28,316 bases of DNA, taken from Candidatus Moraniibacteriota bacterium (GTDB taxonomy: Bacteria > Patescibacteriota > Minisyncoccia > CAIUEV01 > JAHKAQ01). Location: positions 1-28,316 of the forward strand of contig WJJX01000105.1 of the NCBI GenBank assembly GCA_014729445.1, given 5' to 3'. Made by a program: the position numbers and the translations under genes. The notes under the pieces were generated by a model. That model was not told where the DNA came from, searched no databases, and was given only the letters and a program-made list of their open reading frames with translations. Below, one piece after another: positions 9,642 to 28,316 of the stretch. Every line of letters starts with the position of its first letter. The first letter of the stretch is position 1.

Positions 9642-9690
9642 TCCTTAAAAAAACATAAAAATTTAAAGCTCAAAAAGCAGCCTTAAAAAG

Positions 9691-9725
9691 AACCCCCAAA
9701 CCCCCGCAGCGGGGGTTTGGGGGTT
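9691..9725 (+). terminator. perfect 15-bp-arm GC-rich hairpin AACCCCCAAACCCCC-GCAGC-GGGGGTTTGGGGGTT
   Basis: Read directly from the sequence, 50 nt downstream of the KAP NTPase stop. There is no clear U-tract. It is a member of the G5T3G5 motif family described in the findings. Confidence 0.45.
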
Positions 9726-9831
9726 CAGGCCAAAGCTAAACCTGAATTTAAAAAATTTGCCAGATAGTCACATATTTAACCTTTTTTTTGTAATATGCTT
9801 TAATAAACTAAAATTAGCCTTAAAAAAACCA

Positions 9832-17517: not shown

Positions 17518-17530
17518 TCCCTCAGGGTGA

Positions 17531-17701
17531 GGTTTGATAGTTAAGCTTGGGTTTTGGCCTTGGCCCAAAACCCATCCCGGCCTTCCCTTAACAAGGAAGG
17601 AGCTCATAAACGCTTGATATAAACTAAAATTCAACGCCCCCTCCCTGTGAAGGGAGGGCTGGGGTGGGTTTCTTTCAAAACCAAAACTTAGCTATCAAAC
17701 C
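17531..17701 (+). other. candidate structured RNA element or complex terminator (nested hairpins)
   Basis: A ~25-bp imperfect outer inverted repeat (GGTTTGATAGTTAAGCTTGGGTTTT ... AAAACCAAAACTTAGCTATCAAACC) encloses three GC-rich hairpins. These are GGGTTTTGGCC/GGCCCAAAACCC, CCTTCC/GGAAGG and CCCTCCC/GGGAGGG. Confidence 0.3.
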
Positions 17702-17766
17702 TAAGTTATCACCTACGACAAGGCCCCTTAAATTTGACAAAAAAAATAAAATATGTTATTAATAAA

Positions 17767-22174: not shown

Positions 22175-22816
22175 TTAGTTGGTTTTTTTCACAACCTTTT
22201 CCAAAAAGCCCTCCACTTCGCTAAGTTCGACTTGGAATCCATCAGAAAACTCAATCTCCTCCTCCTCAATATCATCAAAATAAACCAAACTCTTCAAAAC
22301 TAATGCTTCGTCTAAATTTGGAAATTTTTCCCTTAACTTGATCAATAGTTCCTCTAACTTATATTTCTTCAAAATGAAATATAAATCAATATAGTCCTTA
22401 CTTGTCGCTCTACTAGTTATCGCGTTTAATTTCATCAAAGCAATATCTAAAACACTCGCCAATTTCAAATTTTCATCACTTACAAAATCTTCAATTAAAT
22501 CAACCTTTAAAGTAAAAAAGCTCAACTTGACATTCTCCCCAATAATAACAGTAAGCGTATTCTCTTCTTCCTGAATTTTATTAATCTCAAAATTTTTAAA
22601 AACATCTTTTATCATTTGGAATAACTTTTGTGTATCAATATCTTTTTTCGAAAAAAAATCAAAATCAACACTATCTCGATGTCCTATTTGAAGAGCAAGC
22701 GCAGTTCCTCCTCCAAGATAAAAATCCTTTTTAAAATTTTTTAAATATTTAACAACCTCTAACCGTTCTTTGTCGAGTATTTTGTAATATAGCATCTTTA
22801 TTAAAATCAAGAACAA
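22175..22816 (-). CDS. AbiEii/AbiGii-family nucleotidyltransferase (type IV toxin-like)
   Basis: YLGGGTALALQIGHRDSVDFDFF matches the GG(T/S)AL...R.S.D.D nucleotidyltransferase motif of AbiEii/DUF1814-like toxins. The true start may be the internal Met at about 22795. Confidence 0.65.
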   Translation of the reverse strand: MFLILIKMLYYKILDKERLEVVKYLKNFKKDFYLGGGTALALQIGHRDSVDFDFFSKKDIDTQKLFQMIKDVFKNFEINKIQEEENTLTVIIGENVKLSFFTLKVDLIEDFVSDENLKLASVLDIALMKLNAITSRATSKDYIDLYFILKKYKLEELLIKLREKFPNLDEALVLKSLVYFDDIEEEEIEFSDGFQVELSEVEGFLEKVVKKTN

Positions 22817-23036
22817 TTGACCAATAATTAAGTGACTTTTTATTCCATTCCCCTGAATAAGATCTATTAATCACTTCTAAAATCTCGCTTCTTGAATAAT
22901 TATCAAACAGCCAATTTATCGCCTGCTTACTCCCTAAATTCAAGATATTTAAAATTATCACTTTCTTATCCTTTTCTAAATCTATCTTAGAAAAATCGTA
23001 AGACCACAAAAAAGGCTTAATGAAATTTGGAAGCAT
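22749..23036 (-). CDS. small partner protein of the nucleotidyltransferase (putative antitoxin)
   Basis: 95-aa ORF directly upstream of, and overlapping, the nucleotidyltransferase gene on the same strand. The conserved-looking N-terminus LWSYDFSKIDLEKDKKVIILNILNLG recalls small partners seen with AbiEii-like genes. This is inference only. Confidence 0.4.
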   Translation of the reverse strand: MLPNFIKPFLWSYDFSKIDLEKDKKVIILNILNLGSKQAINWLFDNYSRSEILEVINRSYSGEWNKKSLNYWSIVLDFNKDAILQNTRQRTVRGC

Positions 23037-23237
23037 AATATTTATTAATTCTCACACTGCTATTATAGCATTTTAAATAATTTTCACCATAAGCCAGACC
23101 GAATCGTCACCAGCCGCTAAGCCGACTACTAAGTAAACAGTCACCTGAAAACTTGACCAAACCCTCCAAAAATGGTATTTTTTATAGCTTTCAAAAGATT
23201 TTTTTGAAAGTCTAAAAATTGATCTAATTTCTTAGTC

Positions 23238-23280
23238 AGCTGTCCGCGGATTATAATAACCCAAGCGTTTAAAAACGCGC
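23238..23280 (+). repeat. 42-nt repeat CAGCTGTCCGCGGATTATAATAACCCAAGCGTTTAAAAACGCGC (copy 1)
   Basis: It contains a TATAAT core flanked by CCGCGG, followed by the palindrome GCGTTTAAAAACGC. It is about 80% identical to 27319-27360. It lies in the intergenic region upstream (minus-strand sense) of the nucleotidyltransferase pair. Confidence 0.5.
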
Positions 23281-23374
23281 CGTCGGCACCATAGCCGACA
23301 AAATCGCCGCTCTTTGCAACCCTTTTCCCAACTCCAAATCAAAACCCTTCCACCCCATTCAAAAAAAATTTATT

Positions 23375-23650
23375 TCACCTTCCATAATTCAACCTCTCTC
23401 TTATCATCCCATCACTCCTATGAACAAATAATTCCGTCTTTTTGTCTCTGGCCAGCTTCTTCCCAAAGTCAATTGCTTCTTTTTGAGTATCAAAAACTCT
23501 GAATGATTTTTTAGAATCTAATCGTTTAATTACCCAATTACTGTTATCATAAACAATATGCCACGCCAAAAGACCCTTTCTTACAGCTTTTTCATAGGCT
23601 TTAATCTGAGGATTATTTAAATTTCTACGTTTTAAAGTTATTTCTTTCAT
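23375..23650 (-). CDS. DUF2188-family small protein
   Basis: WHIVYDNSNWVIKR...FDTQKEAIDFGKKLARDKKTELFVHRSDGMIRERLNYG matches the DUF2188 pattern (W.V...........F.TK.EAI..A...A......L.IH..DG.I.E...YG). Confidence 0.6.
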   Translation of the reverse strand: MKEITLKRRNLNNPQIKAYEKAVRKGLLAWHIVYDNSNWVIKRLDSKKSFRVFDTQKEAIDFGKKLARDKKTELFVHRSDGMIRERLNYGR

Positions 23651-24248
23651 TTTTATAATTTATAAATTTGACTAAATTATTTTCTTTAATTTGAATAGTT
23701 TCTAAATATTTAATTTTCTCCTTTCTTGAATCAAAATATAATTTTTTAAAAATCATTTTATCCTTTTTATCATAAATACTCTTATAAACCATCAATTTAA
23801 CTTTCGGATAATTCTTAGCAATCCATAACAACACTTCTCTTGATCCCGAATGCGTTTTATAAAAATGTATATCGCTGAATTTTCTATCACGATGTAAAAA
23901 CGCGATGAATGCCCTCTTTAAATCATCCGGAATAACACTATAAACAATAGGAGTTTTATTCTTTTTTAAAATCTTTCTTATTTTAATCTTTGCCCCCAAA
24001 ACAGTTGATAAAGTTCCATCAAAAACTACTCCTTTATAATCAAACAAATACTCTGACAAAAACTCAGTTTTTCCAGAAGCGGTTCCGCCATTCATCAAAA
24101 TAATCCGCCAAAATCTATCATCTTTCAAAACTCCATCAAATTCTTTATCGGCTAACTTTGCTGATTTTTTATGATAATTCTCAACTTTTTTAGGATCATA
24201 ACCTTTAAAACTTTTCTTGATCTCATCAGCAGAGATAATTTTTGTCAT
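23625..24248 (-). CDS. P-loop kinase-like protein, zeta-toxin/AAA_33-like (tentative)
   Basis: Walker A-like ILMNGGTASGKTEF, of a size typical for zeta-toxin/UNAG-kinase-like P-loop proteins. It overlaps the DUF2188 gene at its 3' end, suggesting co-operonic organisation. Confidence 0.5.
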   Translation of the reverse strand: MTKIISADEIKKSFKGYDPKKVENYHKKSAKLADKEFDGVLKDDRFWRIILMNGGTASGKTEFLSEYLFDYKGVVFDGTLSTVLGAKIKIRKILKKNKTPIVYSVIPDDLKRAFIAFLHRDRKFSDIHFYKTHSGSREVLLWIAKNYPKVKLMVYKSIYDKKDKMIFKKLYFDSRKEKIKYLETIQIKENNLVKFINYKNERNNFKT

Positions 24249-24426
24249 AATTTTACTAATTCCTAAATCCTTCCTACTAACATCCTAAATAAATTTAATT
24301 TATAATTCAAGACTCCATCAAACAAACAAAAAATGGTCACTGTCAGTTTTATTGTCGTAATCCGCTAAACCGAACACCAGCCGCCGACCAGCATGTCGGT
24401 CCAATCTTACATAAAAACCAACAGTC

Positions 24427-24469
24427 ATAACCCCGAGACTTCAGTCCGGGGTTATGGCGGCTGAAAGGC
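24427..24469 (+). repeat. ~43-nt hairpin repeat, copy A (CATAACCCCG-N11-CGGGGTTATGGCGGCTGAAAGG)
   Basis: 9-bp perfect stem ATAACCCCG/CGGGGTTAT. It shares about 80% identity with copies at 24659 and 25620. Confidence 0.5.
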
Positions 24470-24658
24470 CTACCCCTCCCAAAAAGTCTATCCCCACCGA
24501 CAACTCCATTGACTTTTTATCTAAAATATGGTACAGTTTCTCGTTATCTATGAAAATAATCTAACATTTTCGTAGATAAAGAACCTTCTATCGGGATAAT
24601 AACAAATTACCTCTAAAAATAAGGCTTTTTCGTTTAAGCCTGACTGAAATGGATTTTA

Positions 24659-24701
24659 CATAACCCCGAAACTTTAGTCCGGAGTTATGACAGCTGGAAA
24701 A
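24659..24701 (+). repeat. ~43-nt hairpin repeat, copy B
   Basis: CATAACCCCGAAACTTTAGTCCGGAGTTATGACAGCTGGAAAA. It has the same architecture as copy A, with one C/A mismatch in the stem. Confidence 0.5.
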
Positions 24702-24995
24702 CCCCAGCCCTCCTCGCCACGCTTGGCTGGCGTAGCGGGCCTTCACAGGGAGGGGGCAAACCTCCCCGTCCCTCCGCTCCGGAGGGAACCTACATTACAG
24801 TACCTCCAAACTCTATTCAAGGGTTCCTCCCGGATCGGGAGGACAGGAGGGTTCCCCAACCCAAACCGGGGGTTTGGGGGTTCAAAGGTCAAATCCATAA
24901 AATTTATTTCAGTCAGGCTTCGAGAAGCTTAAAAAATAACTGGGGATGCTGCCGCCTGACGTTGCAGTGTTCCCTAAAAATTACTGGAGGTAAAA

Positions 24996-25484
24996 ATGAA
25001 TAAAAACTTGTTGTTTGTATTAATCTTTATGGTAATAATGGTGTTGGGAGCATGTTCGTCCCAAGATCAGAACACGGCAGATGGTGATGTCAACATCACC
25101 ATCTATGATTACACAGACGGGCATCTTGTGTATGAAGGAAACCCGGAGAGTGCCAAATTGTATTTCGACTACACATGTGAATACGAAGGATTTATAAGGC
25201 AATTCTGGTGGGTTTCCGAGAGACTCTCAGGGAAGTACGTATGGGAAGTTATATCCTCCCCCATTGACGAATACTGGAATGGTTTCTGGCTTATCAAAGG
25301 ATTTCTGGTGGAAGAAGGGGAGACCATAAGCAGAAACATCTGCATCTATGTGGTGGAAGATACCCCAGAAGAGATTGCCGCCGCTATAAAAAATTATTAT
25401 CAGACGAGTGCAACCTTTTCAATTTATTATCCCCAAGATGAATCAGGGGATATTGTTACGGAGTTCCTCTTAATCGAGGAGTAA
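24996..25484 (+). CDS. putative lipoprotein of probably foreign origin
   Basis: Signal peptide with a lipobox (MNKNLLFVLIFMVIMVLGAC-SSQ). A strong GGAGG Shine-Dalgarno sits 7 nt upstream, which is unusual in this window. The gene is visibly GC-richer and uses different codons than its neighbours. No homolog was recognised. Confidence 0.6.
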   Translation: MNKNLLFVLIFMVIMVLGACSSQDQNTADGDVNITIYDYTDGHLVYEGNPESAKLYFDYTCEYEGFIRQFWWVSERLSGKYVWEVISSPIDEYWNGFWLIKGFLVEEGETISRNICIYVVEDTPEEIAAAIKNYYQTSATFSIYYPQDESGDIVTEFLLIEE

Positions 25485-25619
25485 CAAGTAACAGTTCCTT
25501 TGAACAAAGAAAACAGCCCAAGGTGGGTTTGGACATAAAGGAGAAATCCTTGATGTCCTATGAGATTCAATTCTCACTCACCTTCGGGCTTTTTTCAATT
25601 CAAAACAAAACCAAAAATC

Positions 25620-25658
25620 CCAACCCCGAAACATTAGGCCGGGGTTATGATGGCTTGG
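25620..25658 (+). repeat. ~43-nt hairpin repeat, copy C
   Basis: CCAACCCCGAAACATTAGGCCGGGGTTATGATGGCTTGG. It lies between the lipoprotein gene and the 3' end of the AbiEii gene. Confidence 0.45.
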
Positions 25659-25701
25659 TAAATAAGCTTATGAACTTACAGCTTAATTTTAGACAGCTGA
25701 A

Positions 25702-26379
25702 CTATTCGCTTCTGATTTTTAGCTCAAACAACAATTTATTTATCAAATTTTTTTTAGTATCAACCTTTTGCTTTTCATCCAAAACCTCTCCTAATCCGTC
25801 AAGAATCAAGGCGGGGTTAATCTTTTTTTCAATAAAATCGATTAGTTCCTTAAAATATTCCTTCAAATTTTTGCCTGTTCTTTGTTTAATAATCTCTTCG
25901 CTAATGTTAAAGCCTTGTTCAAACATAAAAAGAGCGTCAAAAAGGTCTCTGTTTTGGGGTTTTCTTCTGTCGGTAATGGCGCAAAGTTTATGGGCGAACA
26001 TACAATCTTTAGTCATTGTCTTAACCGTAAAACCGTAAAAATTTTTTGTTTCGTATTTATCAAGATAGCGTCTTTTACTGACTTCAACCTTGACTTTTTG
26101 CCTGCCTTTTTCAAAACTCCCAAGCCAAAACCAGGTGTTTCTTTTGGATATATTTTCCTCCAAAATCAAGTATTGTTTTAAGATTTTAGTTAATTCATAA
26201 CTTTTCAATTCATTGTTTAAAAGGTTAAAATCAAGATCCGTTGAAAAACGGTTGAGTTTATGAAAGAGATAAAGGCAGGTTCCGTCCTTAAAAGCCAGTT
26301 TGTTTTGGAGGCGTTTATTTGAATAAATATCGGCCAGAATTTTTTTTAAAATTATTTCGTGGCGTGTTCTATCAAGCAT
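25702..26379 (-). CDS. AbiEii-family nucleotidyltransferase toxin (type IV TA)
   Basis: FKDGTCLYLFHKLNRFSTDLDF is the hallmark AbiEii/DUF1814 motif. It overlaps the upstream AbiEi-like gene by 8 nt. Confidence 0.8.
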   Translation of the reverse strand: MLDRTRHEIILKKILADIYSNKRLQNKLAFKDGTCLYLFHKLNRFSTDLDFNLLNNELKSYELTKILKQYLILEENISKRNTWFWLGSFEKGRQKVKVEVSKRRYLDKYETKNFYGFTVKTMTKDCMFAHKLCAITDRRKPQNRDLFDALFMFEQGFNISEEIIKQRTGKNLKEYFKELIDFIEKKINPALILDGLGEVLDEKQKVDTKKNLINKLLFELKIRSE

Positions 26380-26938
26380 AGTCTTTAATTAACTTTTTAA
26401 TTTCTTTTAAAAGATTTTGATTTTCGTAAATTCCGGCAATTTTTAAAAGTTTTTCTACATCTAAACCGGAAAGGTTGTCAAAAGCCAGCTTGGGTTTTAA
26501 ATAAAGGCTGTCGCAGATTGCCCTTTCTTTGGAAGCGATTAAATAGTTTTCCTTTTGTTCAATTCCCAGCGAATTAAAAAAAATATCAGATTTGATTTGA
26601 TGATACTTAAAAATTTTGTCTTCAACTTTTACGTTTTTGGTTTTAAGCGCCATGCTGTGAATATTCTTATAATATTGAAAAACAACACCGTGTTTATTTA
26701 ACGCAGTATAAAAAGAAATATAGGAAACGGGAACAATTTTTTGAGCTAATTCAAAGTCGTCAAAATCTTTTTCTATGTAGTAAATACCCTTTTTGATTTT
26801 TTTCAAATCTCCCTTTCTTAAATAATACTTAATTGCCTCGATTAACTTTTTTCTGTCGTTTTCCCGCCAAATAACGCCCAAGTCCTGAATGGTTAAAATT
26901 TTTTGTCGAGCTTTTAAAAGCTCGGTTATTTTTGTCAT
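26372..26938 (-). CDS. AbiEi-family antitoxin/transcriptional regulator (type IV TA)
   Basis: The N-terminal winged-HTH pattern ILTIQDLGVIWRENDRKKLIEAIKYYLRKGDLKKIKKGIYYI matches the AbiEi_4 N-domain consensus (L...G.L.RL.RG.Y). It sits upstream of, and overlapping, the AbiEii gene. Confidence 0.75.
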   Translation of the reverse strand: MTKITELLKARQKILTIQDLGVIWRENDRKKLIEAIKYYLRKGDLKKIKKGIYYIEKDFDDFELAQKIVPVSYISFYTALNKHGVVFQYYKNIHSMALKTKNVKVEDKIFKYHQIKSDIFFNSLGIEQKENYLIASKERAICDSLYLKPKLAFDNLSGLDVEKLLKIAGIYENQNLLKEIKKLIKDYA

Positions 26939-26947
26939 CGTTTTATT

Positions 26948-26998
26948 TTACGGTTAAAAAACTACCGTAATTATAAACAAGCGAAGGAATACTGTCAA
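26948..26998 (-). promoter_or_regulatory. consensus TTGACA-N17-TATAAT promoter (minus strand) with an embedded 7-bp inverted repeat
   Basis: On the minus strand the -35 box is at 26993-26998 and the -10 box at 26970-26975. The inverted repeat TTACGGT-N9-ACCGTAA (26948-26970) overlaps the -10 box and the predicted transcription start, immediately upstream of the AbiEi start codon. This fits the known AbiEi mechanism of autorepression through promoter inverted repeats. Confidence 0.5.
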
Positions 26999-27109
26999 GA
27001 GATAGCAATAGGGTAATATCTAGGAGATGGAACAAGGACAATATAAAATAGAAAAGCCGGTGTCGAAACCACCAGCTAATCTAATAAATATTAACCTTGT
27101 TCAAAACTA

Positions 27110-27138
27110 TTGACAAAACTTAAATTTTAAGATAATAA
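27110..27138 (+). promoter_or_regulatory. candidate plus-strand promoter TTGACA-N15-17-GATAAT/TAATAA
   Basis: Read directly from the sequence. It points into the ~620-bp hairpin-rich element, and no ORF lies downstream for about 800 nt. Confidence 0.3.
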
Positions 27139-27221
27139 TTAATGTTTTCTTTGTAAAAAGGGGGACTGTACCTTAATTTGAGACTGTACCCCCCAAACCC
27201 CCAAGGGGGCTTATGTAATCG

Positions 27222-27287
27222 TAAAGTTTCATTTAAACTTTATGACAAGGTTCCCCCCTTGGGGGGGGGCAGTGGGGGTAAAGCCAA
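27222..27287 (+). repeat. direct repeat unit 1 (AAAGTTTCA-TTAAACTTT-TGACAA-GC hairpin-CAGTGGGGGTA)
   Basis: It aligns with 27556-27640. The conserved core is ATAAAGTTTCA(C)T(A/T)AAACTTT(A/T)TGACAA(G/A)GTTC, followed by a G/C palindrome and then CAGTGGGGGTA. Confidence 0.5.
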
Positions 27288-27318
27288 AAAGACAAAGGGC
27301 CACCCCAAAAATAGCCAT

Positions 27319-27360
27319 CAGCTATCCGCCAATTATAATAACCAAGGCGTTCCAAACGCC
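27319..27360 (+). repeat. 42-nt repeat copy 2 (CAGCTATCCGCCAATTATAATAACCAAGGCGTTCCAAACGCC)
   Basis: Same architecture as copy 1, with TATAAT followed by the palindrome GGCGTTCCAAACGCC. A shorter relative, CCGGTGATTATAATAAG, is at 27708-27724. Confidence 0.5.
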
Positions 27361-27555
27361 AAGGTTTAAAAAATAATTAGCGGATACTCTGACTGCTATA
27401 AAAAAGAGTCTATTTAGATCTTTTAAAATTTACCCTATACTTTATACCGAATCGATAGAAACGGAATACCTTCTTTGAATATAAGAAAATTCCTTTCCGA
27501 ATCGGAATATTGTGTTTGAACCACCCTGTCCCTCCAGTATGGAGGGAACTATGTC

Positions 27556-27640
27556 ATAAAGTTTCACTAAAACTTTTTGACAAAGTTCTCCCCGCGGGGG
27601 AGACCCACCAAAGGCTGGGTAAACAGTGGGGGTAGAGAGA
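27556..27640 (+). repeat. direct repeat unit 2
   Basis: Second copy of the unit above. Its G/C hairpin is longer (TCCCCGCGGGGGAGACC). Confidence 0.5.
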
Positions 27641-27932
27641 AAAAGGGGAGAGGGGAACGAAAACCCCTAAATCCCCGATGCACGGGGACTTCCTAACTTT
27701 GGTTTCTCCCGGTGATTATAATAAGAATCTATTATCAAATTCTCTATTCTCATCATCATCTCTCCCCAACCAACACAAGCCCCCGTGCATCGGGGGTTTG
27801 GGGGTTCCAAAACTTGCCAATTCCCCCAACAAACACAACATTCCGGTTCGGAATTCCCAGGTTAGCGATTGTGCGAAGCCTGGGATTAATGGTTTTTCTT
27901 TATTTTTTGGGGCGTTGCCCCGAGGAGGAATT

Positions 27933-28316
27933 ATGAAAAAATTGATCGTTGTCGTAATTTTGGCGGCCTGGGCAACCGCCACGGCTAGTGTTGCGGATGC
28001 CGGGATTTTCTCGGATCCGCTTTTGTCCGCCGGTCCGGGGGCGGACGTTGAATTGACCTGGTGCCCTGGGGATCCGGATTTCCGGGGATATACGGCGGGC
28101 CCCGACGCCGATATCGTTGTGTACTTTGATTCGGAGTGCGGGGAAACTCCGAATCTGGATGGACTCTGGACCCTTGGTCCGGGGTCCGATGTGCGGGCGG
28201 AGGAGCGGCGCGGTATTTGTGGCTGCGACGCATCCTCGGGGAGCTCCGACGCCCCCCCCGCCAGCTGGGAGCGGGACATCGCCCCCCCCGCCCCCACCCC
28301 AGAAGTGCCCTGTACC
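27933..28316 (+). CDS. secreted protein, 3'-truncated by the window edge, very GC-rich
   Basis: ATG 27933 sits 4 nt after a perfect AGGAGG Shine-Dalgarno. The Sec signal peptide is MKKLIVVVILAAWATATASVADA. The frame is open for 128 codons to the last base of the window. It is not in the ORF track because it has no stop in the window. GC content and codon usage are radically different from the rest of the window. Confidence 0.5.
   Translation, partial: MKKLIVVVILAAWATATASVADAGIFSDPLLSAGPGADVELTWCPGDPDFRGYTAGPDADIVVYFDSECGETPNLDGLWTLGPGSDVRAEERRGICGCDASSGSSDAPPASWERDIAPPAPTPEVPCT

What the first reader, a model, noticed from the sequence alone, without database searches (positions are those of the whole stretch)
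27188..27811. ~620-bp ORF-less element bounded by inverted G5T3G5 repeats, a MITE-like insertion into a palindromic repeat
The termini ACCCCCCAAACCCCC and GGGGGTTTGGGGGTT are inverted copies of each other with 14 of 15 positions matching. These same termini form a contiguous hairpin elsewhere in the window (9691-9725), which is the pattern expected if a non-autonomous element inserted into, or is bounded by, that palindrome. The interior has no ORF and carries two ~85-nt direct repeats, each with an AAAGTTT/AAACTTT mini-palindrome, a TTGACA box and a G/C hairpin. It also has a 15-bp inverted pair CCCCGATGCACGGGG/CCCCGTGCATCGGGG about 93 bp apart and a copy of the 42-nt TATAAT repeat. A consensus-like promoter at 27110 points into it, so the region may be transcribed as a structured ncRNA.
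Basis: partly seen in the sequence, partly recalled or inferred. Interest (0 to 1): 0.65.

Follow-up and report, generated by a model that had tools for sequence, protein, structure and literature searches.

The report
Palindromic repeat cluster in Moranbacteria intergenic DNA
The flagged 620 bases are real and far from random, but they most likely are not one mobile element: they are the core of a 1-kb gene-free stretch, in a Candidatus Moranbacteria contig, packed with several kinds of short G/C-rich hairpin repeats that also occur in other gaps between genes on the same contig.

Summary
The window is one whole 28,316-bp contig of a Candidatus Moranbacteria MAG.

The "termini" are 2 of 6 copies of a 15-nt arm (AACCCCCAAACCCCC), all in gaps between genes. 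A third copy inside the element (27662-27691) pairs with the right terminus over 29 bp. A 23-bp stem (27495-27518/27830-27853) crosses the proposed right boundary. There is no target-site duplication.

No second copy of the interior turned up in phage, plasmid, viral, species-representative genome or JGI metagenome collections. The nearest relatives of two contig proteins are only 50-61% identical, so no close genome was available for comparison.

The region is built from hairpin doublets (a hairpin, a spacer, the inverted hairpin) of at least five repeat families. These are shared with gene-free stretches at 9.7, 17.5, 23.2 and 24.7 kb. One 73-92-nt module is duplicated.

Folding is equally extreme on both strands and G-U pairs are few. 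This fits DNA palindromes of the REP/REPIN/BIME kind (probability about 0.55).

A roughly 750-nt structured transcript or leader cannot be excluded (about 0.2). It would run from the near-consensus promoter at 27110 to a hairpin plus U-tract at 27855-27908. A single MITE is unlikely (about 0.1).

The parts
26970..26998 (-). Perfect sigma-70-type promoter (TTGACA-17-TATAAT) for the AbiEi/AbiEii operon. It marks the left limit of the repeat region and is not part of it.
   Evidence: 12 of 12 consensus positions. The 41 nt next to the AbiEi start (26939-26979) are 78% identical to the same position upstream of AbiEi homologues in L035 and L036.
27030..27102 (.). 73-nt imperfect palindrome lying between the two divergent promoters.
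   Evidence: pair I3; z = -7.0 on the + strand and -8.3 on the - strand.
27110..27139 (+). Promoter-like site TTGACA-18-AATAAT pointing into the repeat cluster.
   Evidence: 11 of 12 consensus positions. This is a consensus match only; no expression data are available.
27185..27216 (+). U1, the left 'terminus': arm AACCCCCAAACCCCC with 1 mismatch, a C5-AA-G5 core hairpin, then CTTATGT. It is an inverted copy of 27773-27809 with a 7-nt indel.
   Evidence: (pairs I7 and I10).
27198..27269 (+). M1 hairpin doublet: CCCCCAAGGGGG, an A/T-rich AAAGTTT/AAACTTT hairpin, then CCCCCCTTGGGGGG.
   Evidence: (pair I13).
27219..27291 (+). Direct-repeat copy 1.
   Evidence: 84% identical to 27554-27645. (families D1, D3).
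27311..27399 (.). 89-nt imperfect hairpin that contains the TATAAT repeat (27318-27356). A second copy of that repeat is at 23236-23274.
   Evidence: (family D6); z = -6.6 on the + strand and -7.0 on the - strand.
27495..27518 (.). 5' arm of the 23-bp stem 'B'.
   Evidence: pair I4; score 18; best shuffle score 14.
27528..27602 (+). M2 hairpin doublet: GTCCCTCC-AGTAT-GGAGGGAAC, an A/T-rich hairpin, then CTCCCC-GCG-GGGGAG. It is a paralogue of M1 and of M5 (24768-24844).
   Evidence: (pair I5).
27554..27645 (+). Direct-repeat copy 2, with a 19-nt extra hairpin.
27662..27691 (+). U2, a third copy of the arm-plus-core unit (AACCCCTAAATCCCCGATGCACGGGGACTT). It pairs with 27777-27806.
   Evidence: pair I2; score 21, the highest in the region.
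27773..27809 (-). U3, the right 'terminus': core hairpin CCCCCGTGCATCGGGGG followed by TTTGGGGGTTC. Its 17-mer CGGGGGTTTGGGGGTTC is identical to the one at 9710-9726 and at 24867-24883.
   Evidence: (family D2).
27830..27853 (.). 3' arm of stem B.
27855..27908 (+). 9-bp G/C hairpin followed by a U-rich tail (UUAAUGGUUUUUCUUUAUUUUUU). It is a possible intrinsic terminator for a + strand transcript.
   Evidence: -17.5 kcal/mol, z = -1.4, so not remarkable in itself. The consensus scan did not report it.
9690..9726 (.). Intact G5T3G5 palindrome: two U arms back to back around CCCCC-GCAGC-GGGGG.
24636..24920 (+). IG5e, a related composite element. A 23-bp closing stem encloses an H hairpin, the X motif, the M5 doublet (24768-24844) and a degenerate G5T3G5 hairpin (24853-24883).
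   Evidence: z = -9.1 on the + strand and -6.4 on the - strand; alignment to 27495-27853 in the same orientation gives z = 5.5.
17530..17702 (-). IG3e, a 173-nt near-perfect long palindrome. It shares the 18-mer CCTTCACAGGGAGGGGGC with IG5e.

Best explanation
The 995-nt gene-free stretch 26939-27932 lies between the divergently oriented AbiEi gene and an orphan G/C-rich ORF. Its core, about 27144-27853, is a mosaic cluster of lineage-specific, G/C-rich palindromic repeat units of the REP / REPIN / BIME kind.

Shown by the sequence:
- The building block is a short C/G hairpin, often present as a doublet: a hairpin, an A/T-rich spacer, then the inverted hairpin.
- At least five unit families occur. 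I call them U (the G5T3G5 arm), M, T (the TATAAT hairpin), B, and X/H in the neighbouring gaps. They recur in other gene-free stretches of the same contig.

Inferred, not shown:
- The units spread and rearrange at the DNA level. Possible routes are a hairpin-recognising transposase encoded elsewhere in the genome (RAYT / IS200-IS605-like), or template switching between palindromes.
- They accumulate in a dispensable toxin-antitoxin island by insertion next to or into each other and by local duplication; the 73-92-nt module is present twice.
- If transcribed, they would form very stable stem-loops and could insulate or terminate transcription between the flanking genes.
For: - The U arm occurs 6 times in 28 kb, always between genes and in both orientations. 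The 13-nt core occurs 5 times against 0.05 expected.
- Families M (3 copies), H (3), X (2), T (2) and B (2) are shared among the gene-free stretches at 17.5, 23.2, 24.7, 25.6 and 27.2-27.8 kb.
- Doublet architecture is seen in M1, M2, M5, U2/U3 and IG3e.
- Each small hairpin keeps perfect pairing through double substitutions between paralogues. For the third hairpin the stems are CCCCCC/GGGGGG in M1, CTCCCC/GGGGAG in M2 and CCTCCC/GGGAGG in M5 (read directly).
- Folding is equally extreme on both strands. The four composite units score z = -6.4 to -9.1, while two coding stretches used as controls score +0.8 to -3.6.
- G-U pairs make up only about 5-12% of predicted pairs and do not favour the + strand. 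Stems run to 23-29 bp. This is what DNA inverted repeats look like, and it is unlike evolved RNA structure.
- No Rfam family matches at gathering score, and the sub-threshold matches are chance-level, mostly miRNA-precursor models that score long hairpins. No tRNA was found.
- No coding remnant was detected.
- Published REPIN clusters have these properties: tandem REPINs including their flanks, clusters over 700 bp, REPINs inserted into or next to REPINs, and compensatory changes in the hairpin (PMC3116915).
- The contig ends 460 bp after the cluster. That would be consistent with an assembly break at repeated DNA (inference).
Against: - Genome-wide copy number cannot be measured. Only this contig of the MAG is readable.
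- No other copy of any unit was found outside it.
- No RAYT, IS200/IS605 or other transposase matched among the ORFs of the contig scanned against Pfam.
- Copies of a family are not near-identical as in an actively spreading REPIN population. The long closing stems of IG3e, IG5e and 27495-27853 are each unique in sequence.
- A near-consensus promoter upstream and a hairpin plus U-tract downstream frame the cluster on the + strand, as they would an RNA gene.
- G/C-rich structured islands in an A/T-rich genome are also the classic signature of RNA genes (general knowledge).
Confidence: 0.55

Rival explanations
1. Structured transcript. The cluster is transcribed from the promoter at 27110-27139 (start near 27147). 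It acts either as a roughly 750-nt non-coding RNA ending at the hairpin plus U-tract 27855-27908, or as a long structured 5' leader of the ORF that starts at 27933. It would consist of two domains: 27144-27490, and 27495-27853 closed by the 23-bp stem. IG5e (upstream of the lipoprotein gene 24996-25484) and IG3e would be further members of the same modular RNA family.
For: - Promoter with 11 of 12 consensus positions pointing in, and no comparable promoter on the other side.
- Hairpin with a U-rich tail directly after the closing stem.
- Fold z-scores for the whole region are somewhat better on the + strand: -17 against -12.7, and -14.7 against -10.4.
- IG5e and 27495-27853 are collinear in the same orientation, with z = 5.5 against 1.9 for the reverse orientation.
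- The three closing stems differ in sequence but all pair.
- Hairpin stems are kept by double substitutions between paralogues (read directly).
- The elements are G/C-rich (44-54%) in a 35% G+C genome.
Against: - There are no homologues, so no covariation test is possible.
- No Rfam family matches.
- At unit level there is no strand asymmetry, and G-U pairs are scarce.
- Perfect helices of 23-29 bp and z-scores near -9 to -17 are atypical of functional RNAs and typical of DNA inverted repeats.
- No typical RNA loop motifs (GNRA, UNCG) were seen in the hairpin loops (read directly).
- The downstream ORF is an orphan of foreign composition and may not be a real neighbour.
Confidence: 0.2
2. A single non-autonomous transposon (MITE) of about 620 bp, with G5T3G5 terminal inverted repeats, inserted into a palindrome of the 9690-9726 type.
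For: - Inverted termini of 32-37 nt with a 13-nt perfect core.
- No coding capacity.
- Size is within the MITE range.
- An uninterrupted version of the palindrome exists at 9690-9726.
- Directly inside the arms there is a second inverted pair, GGGGGCTTATGT / ACACAAGCCCCC, which could be the insert's own ends (pair I10).
Against: - No target-site duplication.
- No second copy anywhere.
- An internal third arm is the better partner of the right end.
- Stem B crosses the right boundary.
- The interior is itself made of units found elsewhere on the contig.
- No transposase is encoded on the contig.
Confidence: 0.1
3. Assembly artefact or foreign junction. The repeat-rich, compositionally shifting last 1.1 kb of the contig is partly a chimeric join made by the assembler at low-complexity G/C runs.
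For: - The last 384 nt have 64% G+C (69% at third codon positions) against 35% for the contig.
- That ORF has no homologue among 5.8 billion proteins.
- The window is the whole contig, so this is a true contig end.
Against: - The composition break lies after about 27950, that is, downstream of the cluster.
- The cluster shares five repeat families with the interior of the same contig, so it belongs to this genome.
Confidence: 0.07

Closest known systems
REP sequences, REPINs (REP doublets forming hairpins) and their clusters; BIMEs of enterobacteria
   Same: - Short G/C-rich imperfect palindromes confined to space between genes.
- Doublets in inverted orientation around a spacer, forming a long hairpin.
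- Clusters over 700 bp with tandem copies and with units inserted next to or into each other.
- Compensatory changes that keep the hairpin (PMC3116915).
   Different: - No RAYT gene is visible and no GTAG-type flanking motif is present.
- Copies are few and diverged rather than hundreds of near-identical ones, although only 28 kb of the genome can be seen.
- Several unrelated unit families are mixed in one locus.
- The host is a Patescibacteria (CPR) genome. My two literature searches found no report of REP-type repeats in that group.
Bacterial MITEs (for example Correia/NEMIS, ERIC, RUP) and modular BOX elements of Streptococcus pneumoniae
   Same: Non-coding, under 800 bp, with inverted ends, located between genes, able to fold into long stem-loops when transcribed. 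BOX elements are also modular mosaics. This comparison rests on general knowledge.
   Different: No target-site duplication, no conserved ends among the composite elements, and no repeated full-length copies.
Large structured non-coding RNAs found as G/C-rich islands in A/T-rich genomes (OLE, GOLLD, ROOL, HEARO and similar)
   Same: Several hundred nucleotides, no ORF, strong predicted structure, and a promoter-like site upstream.
   Different: No match to any of 4227 Rfam families. The helices are long and nearly perfect and are symmetric between the strands. No homologues are available for a covariation test.

Membership tests
REP / REPIN | Short (about 20-60 nt) imperfect palindrome with a G/C-rich stem | tested here: met
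   The U unit is about 35 nt with a C5-loop-G5 core. Seven C4-5-loop-G4-5 hairpins were found in the window, five of them in 27198-27796.
REP / REPIN | Confined to space between genes | tested here: met
   All copies of U, M, H, X, T and B lie in gene-free stretches. The only overlapping ORFs are unsupported ones of 81, 74 and 171 aa.
REP / REPIN | Two units in inverted orientation around a spacer, folding into one hairpin | tested here: met
   M1, M2, M5, U2/U3 (29 bp) and IG3e all have this layout.
REP / REPIN | Tens to hundreds of similar copies per genome | not testable with these tools
   Only one 28-kb contig of the MAG is readable. Within it the U core occurs 5 times against 0.05 expected. 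No copies were found in other collections.
REP / REPIN | Cognate RAYT (IS200/IS605-like tyrosine transposase) in the genome | not testable with these tools
   No transposase family matched among the 20 ORFs of the contig scanned against Pfam. The rest of the genome is unavailable.
MITE | Terminal inverted repeats | tested here: met
   27185-27216 against 27773-27809, with a 13-nt perfect core.
MITE | Target-site duplication flanking the ends | tested here: not met
   No abutting direct repeat at either candidate boundary pair.
MITE | Multiple full-length copies with the same ends, or empty sites | tested here: not met
   No second copy of the interior in the window, in phages or plasmids, in viral contigs or in JGI metagenomes. 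No close relative exists for an empty-site comparison: the nearest proteins are 50-61% identical.
Structured RNA gene | Match to a curated RNA family | tested here: not met
   Rfam 15 gives nothing at gathering score. At E-values up to 10 there are only chance-level matches, mostly miRNA-precursor models that score long hairpins. ARAGORN found nothing.
Structured RNA gene | Helices supported by covariation among homologues | not testable with these tools
   No homologues were found. Only three paralogous modules exist, and they show 2-3 double substitutions in small hairpins (read directly; the alignment is too small for statistics).
Structured RNA gene | Strand-specific structure signal (G-U pairs, z-score asymmetry) | tested here: inconclusive
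   Per unit, z-scores are equal on both strands. The whole region slightly favours the + strand. G-U pairs are about 5-12% of predicted pairs and do not favour the + strand.
Integron attC site / cassette array | R''/R' boxes (RYYYAAC ... GTTRRRY) at the hairpin ends, and an integrase nearby | tested here: not met
   None of the long hairpins (27311-27399, 27662-27806, the H hairpins, the closing stems) ends in these boxes (read directly). No integrase is on the contig. The attC covariance model itself could not be run.

The most novel reading that the evidence does not exclude
The cluster and its relatives at 24636-24920 and 17530-17702 would be genes for a previously undescribed family of modular RNAs in Moranbacteria. 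Each would be closed by a long helix that is a likely RNase III substrate. Here they would be expressed as a tandem pair of about 750 nt from a near-consensus promoter, sitting upstream of genes for exported proteins in a toxin-antitoxin island.
Probability: 0.13. Interest if true: 0.6.

Novelty: new member of a known kind. Interest (0 to 1): 0.3.

Why it matters
Genomes of the Candidate Phyla Radiation are small and tightly packed, and my two literature searches found no description of REP-type repeats in them. A 1-kb gene-free stretch filled with several families of hairpin repeats shows that such genomes can carry this kind of DNA, at least in a toxin-antitoxin island.

Such repeats may also explain why MAG contigs break at places like this. 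If the repeats prove to be mobilised by a hairpin-binding transposase, that would extend REPIN-type elements to a new part of the bacterial tree. If they prove to be a transcribed structured RNA, it would be a new RNA family.

As it stands this is a descriptive finding on a single contig with no comparative support.

Tried and rejected
**Searches that found nothing**
- Known RNA families: Rfam at gathering score over the whole window, and at E-values up to 10 on the three repeat-rich gaps. ARAGORN found no tRNA or tmRNA.
- Similar DNA: blastn of 27100-27930 against phage and plasmid collections gave no match.
- Exact-pattern scans of viral contigs for the M core, X, H, T and B motifs gave 0 hits.
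- Exact-pattern scans of JGI metagenomes for the M core and the M doublet gave 0 hits each.

**Searches that gave only unrelated hits**
- The 18-mer CGGGGGTTTGGGGGTTCM in one genome per species gave 34 hits. They were single matches in high-G+C genomes, one unrelated cyanobacterial repeat family, and one low-G+C contig (L033) where the match lies in ordinary A/T-rich sequence with no palindrome.
- The M first-hairpin pattern and the G/C palindrome pattern in viral contigs gave only isolated hairpins and one microvirus-like contig.

**Attempts to find relatives of the source**
- Three window proteins are not indexed in the contig look-up, so the rest of the MAG could not be reached.
- Neighbour-based comparison: AbiEi homologues (at most 61% identical) and glycosyltransferase homologues (at most 50%) were fetched with their flanks. 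Only the 41 nt next to the AbiEi start are shared, and no repeat unit is present.

**Ideas rejected**
- Pseudogene debris: 10 of the longest stop-free six-frame segments have no Pfam match.
- Integron attC sites: the boundary boxes are absent.
- Retron, CRISPR or type III antitoxin RNA: no reverse transcriptase, no regular spacing and no short tandem array.
- Two complete tandem units of about 350 nt: the global alignment is significant (z = 10.5), but the signal comes almost entirely from the 73-92-nt module plus a 10-nt ATTATAATAA. I keep this only as a suggestion.
- The closing stem proposed for 27144-27490 is weak and did not reach the inverted-repeat threshold.
Full report
**Source and setting**

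The window is one complete 28,316-bp contig of an NCBI MAG labelled Candidatus Moranbacteria bacterium. Two of its proteins return 100%-identical database entries whose longest contig is 28,316 bp. The contig has 35% G+C.

Gene content along the contig:
- The left part carries an RND efflux pump and its membrane-fusion partner, a KAP NTPase and a VWA/M23 protein. An asparagine-synthase-like ORF, a radical-SAM-like ORF and two glycosyltransferase-like ORFs follow; these labels are my reading of the translations and of database hit names and precomputed Pfam domains.
- From 22 kb there is a toxin-antitoxin island: AbiEii, DUF6922, DUF2188, an ORF with no Pfam match that I read as zeta-toxin-like, a second AbiEii and a weak, sub-threshold AbiEi match (PF13338, E = 0.005).
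- The finding lies in the last gap between genes, 26939-27932. On its left is the start of the AbiEi gene (minus strand). On its right is an ORF that runs off the contig end.

**Check of the observation**

- The inverted termini, the contiguous hairpin at 9690-9726, the two direct repeats, the 15-nt inverted pair, the TATAAT repeat and the promoter-like site were all found.
- The G5T3G5 core occurs 5 times in the window against 0.05 expected.
- In 27100-27932, six inverted-repeat pairs score at least 12, against 0.15 in dinucleotide shuffles. The best shuffle score (14) is below the three best observed scores of 21, 18 and 18.
- Predicted folding energy is 13-17 standard deviations below shuffled sequence.

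**Why the single-element reading fails**

- The 15-nt arm AACCCCCAAACCCCC occurs six times on the contig: twice in the hairpin at 9.7 kb, once at 24.87 kb and three times in this stretch.
- The third local copy, 27662-27691, pairs with the right 'terminus' over 29 of 30 positions, with only 85 nt between the arms. This is the strongest inverted repeat in the region. It is also what forms in the minimum-free-energy fold, while the left 'terminus' pairs locally.
- A second long stem, 27495-27518 with 27830-27853 (23 bp), has one arm inside and one arm outside the proposed element.
- No direct repeat flanks either candidate boundary.
- Each of the left and right units carries its own complete C5-loop-G5 core hairpin. 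They are whole copies of a roughly 35-nt unit (arm, core hairpin, CTTRTGT), not the two halves of one split palindrome (read directly).

**What the region is made of**

Self-comparison of all gene-free stretches of the contig shows several repeat families.
- **U**: the arm-plus-core unit, six arms in total.
- **M**: a G/C hairpin, an A/T-rich centre, then the inverted G/C hairpin. Copies are at 27198-27269, 27528-27602 and 24768-24844.
- **H**: ATAACCCCG...CGGGGTTAT, three direct copies at 24427, 24660 and 25620.
- **X**: the 18-mer CCTTCACAGGGAGGGGGC, at 24740 and, inverted, at 17636.
- **T**: the TATAAT-containing repeat, at 23236 and 27318.
- **B**: the arms of the 23-bp stem.

The recurring plan is a doublet: a small palindromic hairpin, a spacer, and the reverse complement of that hairpin. 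Either three local hairpins or one long hairpin can therefore form.

Larger composites exist at three places:
- 24636-24920, with a 23-bp closing stem.
- 17530-17702, a 173-nt near-perfect palindrome.
- 27495-27853, with a 23-bp closing stem.

The first and third are collinear in the same orientation: alignment z = 5.5, against 1.9 for the reverse orientation. Within the flagged stretch, 27219-27291 and 27554-27645 are 84% identical direct repeats. Similarity beyond them is limited to ATTATAATAA and a few short matches, so a full tandem duplication of about 350 nt is only a suggestion.

**DNA repeat or RNA gene?**

For DNA-level palindromes:
- The four composite units fold equally far below shuffled controls on both strands (z = -6.4 to -9.1). 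Two coding stretches used as controls score +0.8 to -3.6.
- Only about 5-12% of predicted pairs are G-U, and they do not favour the + strand.
- Stems reach 23-29 nearly perfect pairs.
- No Rfam family matches.
- Competing and crossing pairings are present.
- The contig breaks shortly after the cluster.

For an RNA:
- A promoter with 11 of 12 consensus positions at 27110-27139 points into the cluster.
- A 9-bp G/C hairpin with a U-rich tail follows it at 27855-27908.
- Whole-region z-scores are somewhat better on the + strand.
- The three closing stems differ in sequence yet all pair.
- The elements are G/C-rich islands in an A/T-rich genome.

Small hairpins keep perfect pairing through double substitutions between paralogues. 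The stems of the third hairpin are CCCCCC/GGGGGG, CTCCCC/GGGGAG and CCTCCC/GGGAGG in M1, M2 and M5. This fits both readings, because compensatory change is also reported for REPIN hairpins (PMC3116915).

**Search for relatives**

- No similar DNA was found in phage or plasmid records.
- Exact-pattern scans of viral contigs, of one genome per species and of JGI metagenomes found no true relatives.
- The nearest homologues of two contig proteins, AbiEi and a glycosyltransferase, are 61% and 50% identical.
- The loci fetched around those homologues share only the 41 nt next to the AbiEi start, probably its promoter or operator. They carry none of the repeat units.
- The remainder of the MAG could not be reached.
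- Genome-wide copy number, empty sites and covariation therefore remain untested.

**Interpretation**

The best-supported reading is a mosaic cluster of lineage-specific palindromic repeats. It is comparable to REP/REPIN clusters and BIMEs, which also form clusters over 700 bp, tandem copies and insertions of units into units. I give this about 0.55.

The mechanism is inferred, not shown. It would involve spread by a hairpin-recognising transposase encoded elsewhere, or template switching between palindromes, with accumulation in a dispensable toxin-antitoxin island.

The other readings:
- A structured transcript or leader from the 27110 promoter: about 0.2.
- An assembly artefact affecting mainly the last 380 nt: under 0.1.

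Pseudogene debris is not supported.

**Novelty and score**

The sequence families are new, but the kind of feature is known. No functional or comparative evidence can be obtained with the data at hand. Interest is 0.3. The most novel reading still open is a new modular RNA family in Moranbacteria, with probability about 0.13.

Noticed in passing
window 24636-24920 (+) and 17530-17702 (-): Two further strongly structured composite elements. Each is closed by a unique 23-26-bp stem, and they share the exact 18-mer CCTTCACAGGGAGGGGGC plus CCCCAGCCCTCC. There is no Rfam match. Fold z-scores are -6.4 to -9.1.
   Followed up: partly
window 24427-24456, 24660-24689, 25620-25649: Three direct copies of a 30-nt hairpin (ATAACCCCGAGACTTCAGTCCGGGGTTATG and variants). 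Two of them have similar flanks. They bracket the lipoprotein ORF 24996-25484 rather like cassette boundaries, but they lack attC-type end boxes.
   Followed up: partly
window 27933-28316: The ORF at the contig end has a signal-peptide-like start, 64% G+C (69% at third codon positions) against 35% for the contig, and no homologue in the 5.8-billion-protein search. It is either recently acquired foreign DNA or a chimeric contig end.
   Followed up: partly
window 27030-27102: A 73-nt imperfect palindrome sits exactly between the divergent promoters at 26998-26970 (-) and 27110-27139 (+). On the minus strand its inner hairpin is followed by a T-rich tail, like a terminator shielding the AbiEi promoter.
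   Followed up: partly
window 26939-26979; L035 9959-9999; L036 2338-2378: The 41 nt directly upstream of the AbiEi start codon are 78% identical to the same position upstream of AbiEi homologues that are only 59% identical in protein. This is probably a conserved promoter or operator.
   Followed up: no
L002, L016, L017, L029-L032, L034 (Leptolyngbyaceae cyanobacterium SL_7_1): A multi-copy repeat of at least 60 nt in this cyanobacterial MAG contains the same 18-mer CGGGGGTTTGGGGGTTCC, seen on 8 contigs. The flanks are unrelated to the window, so it appears to be an independent repeat family.
   Followed up: partly
L043 3990-4110 (same sequence as L044, reversed): A 5.4-kb, 38% G+C viral contig with a rolling-circle Rep (ORF2/G2P) carries a cluster of four different G/C palindromes in its non-coding region. 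One of them is CCCCCCAAACCCCCC-AAAGT-GGGGGGTTTGGGGG. The resemblance to the G5T3G5 hairpin may be convergent.
   Followed up: partly
window 22175-26938: A dense toxin-antitoxin island: two AbiEii toxins (one with DUF6922, one with AbiEi), a 207-aa ORF with no Pfam match that I read as zeta-toxin-like, and DUF2188. Unusually long gene-free gaps of 340, 750 and 220 nt lie between them.
   Followed up: partly
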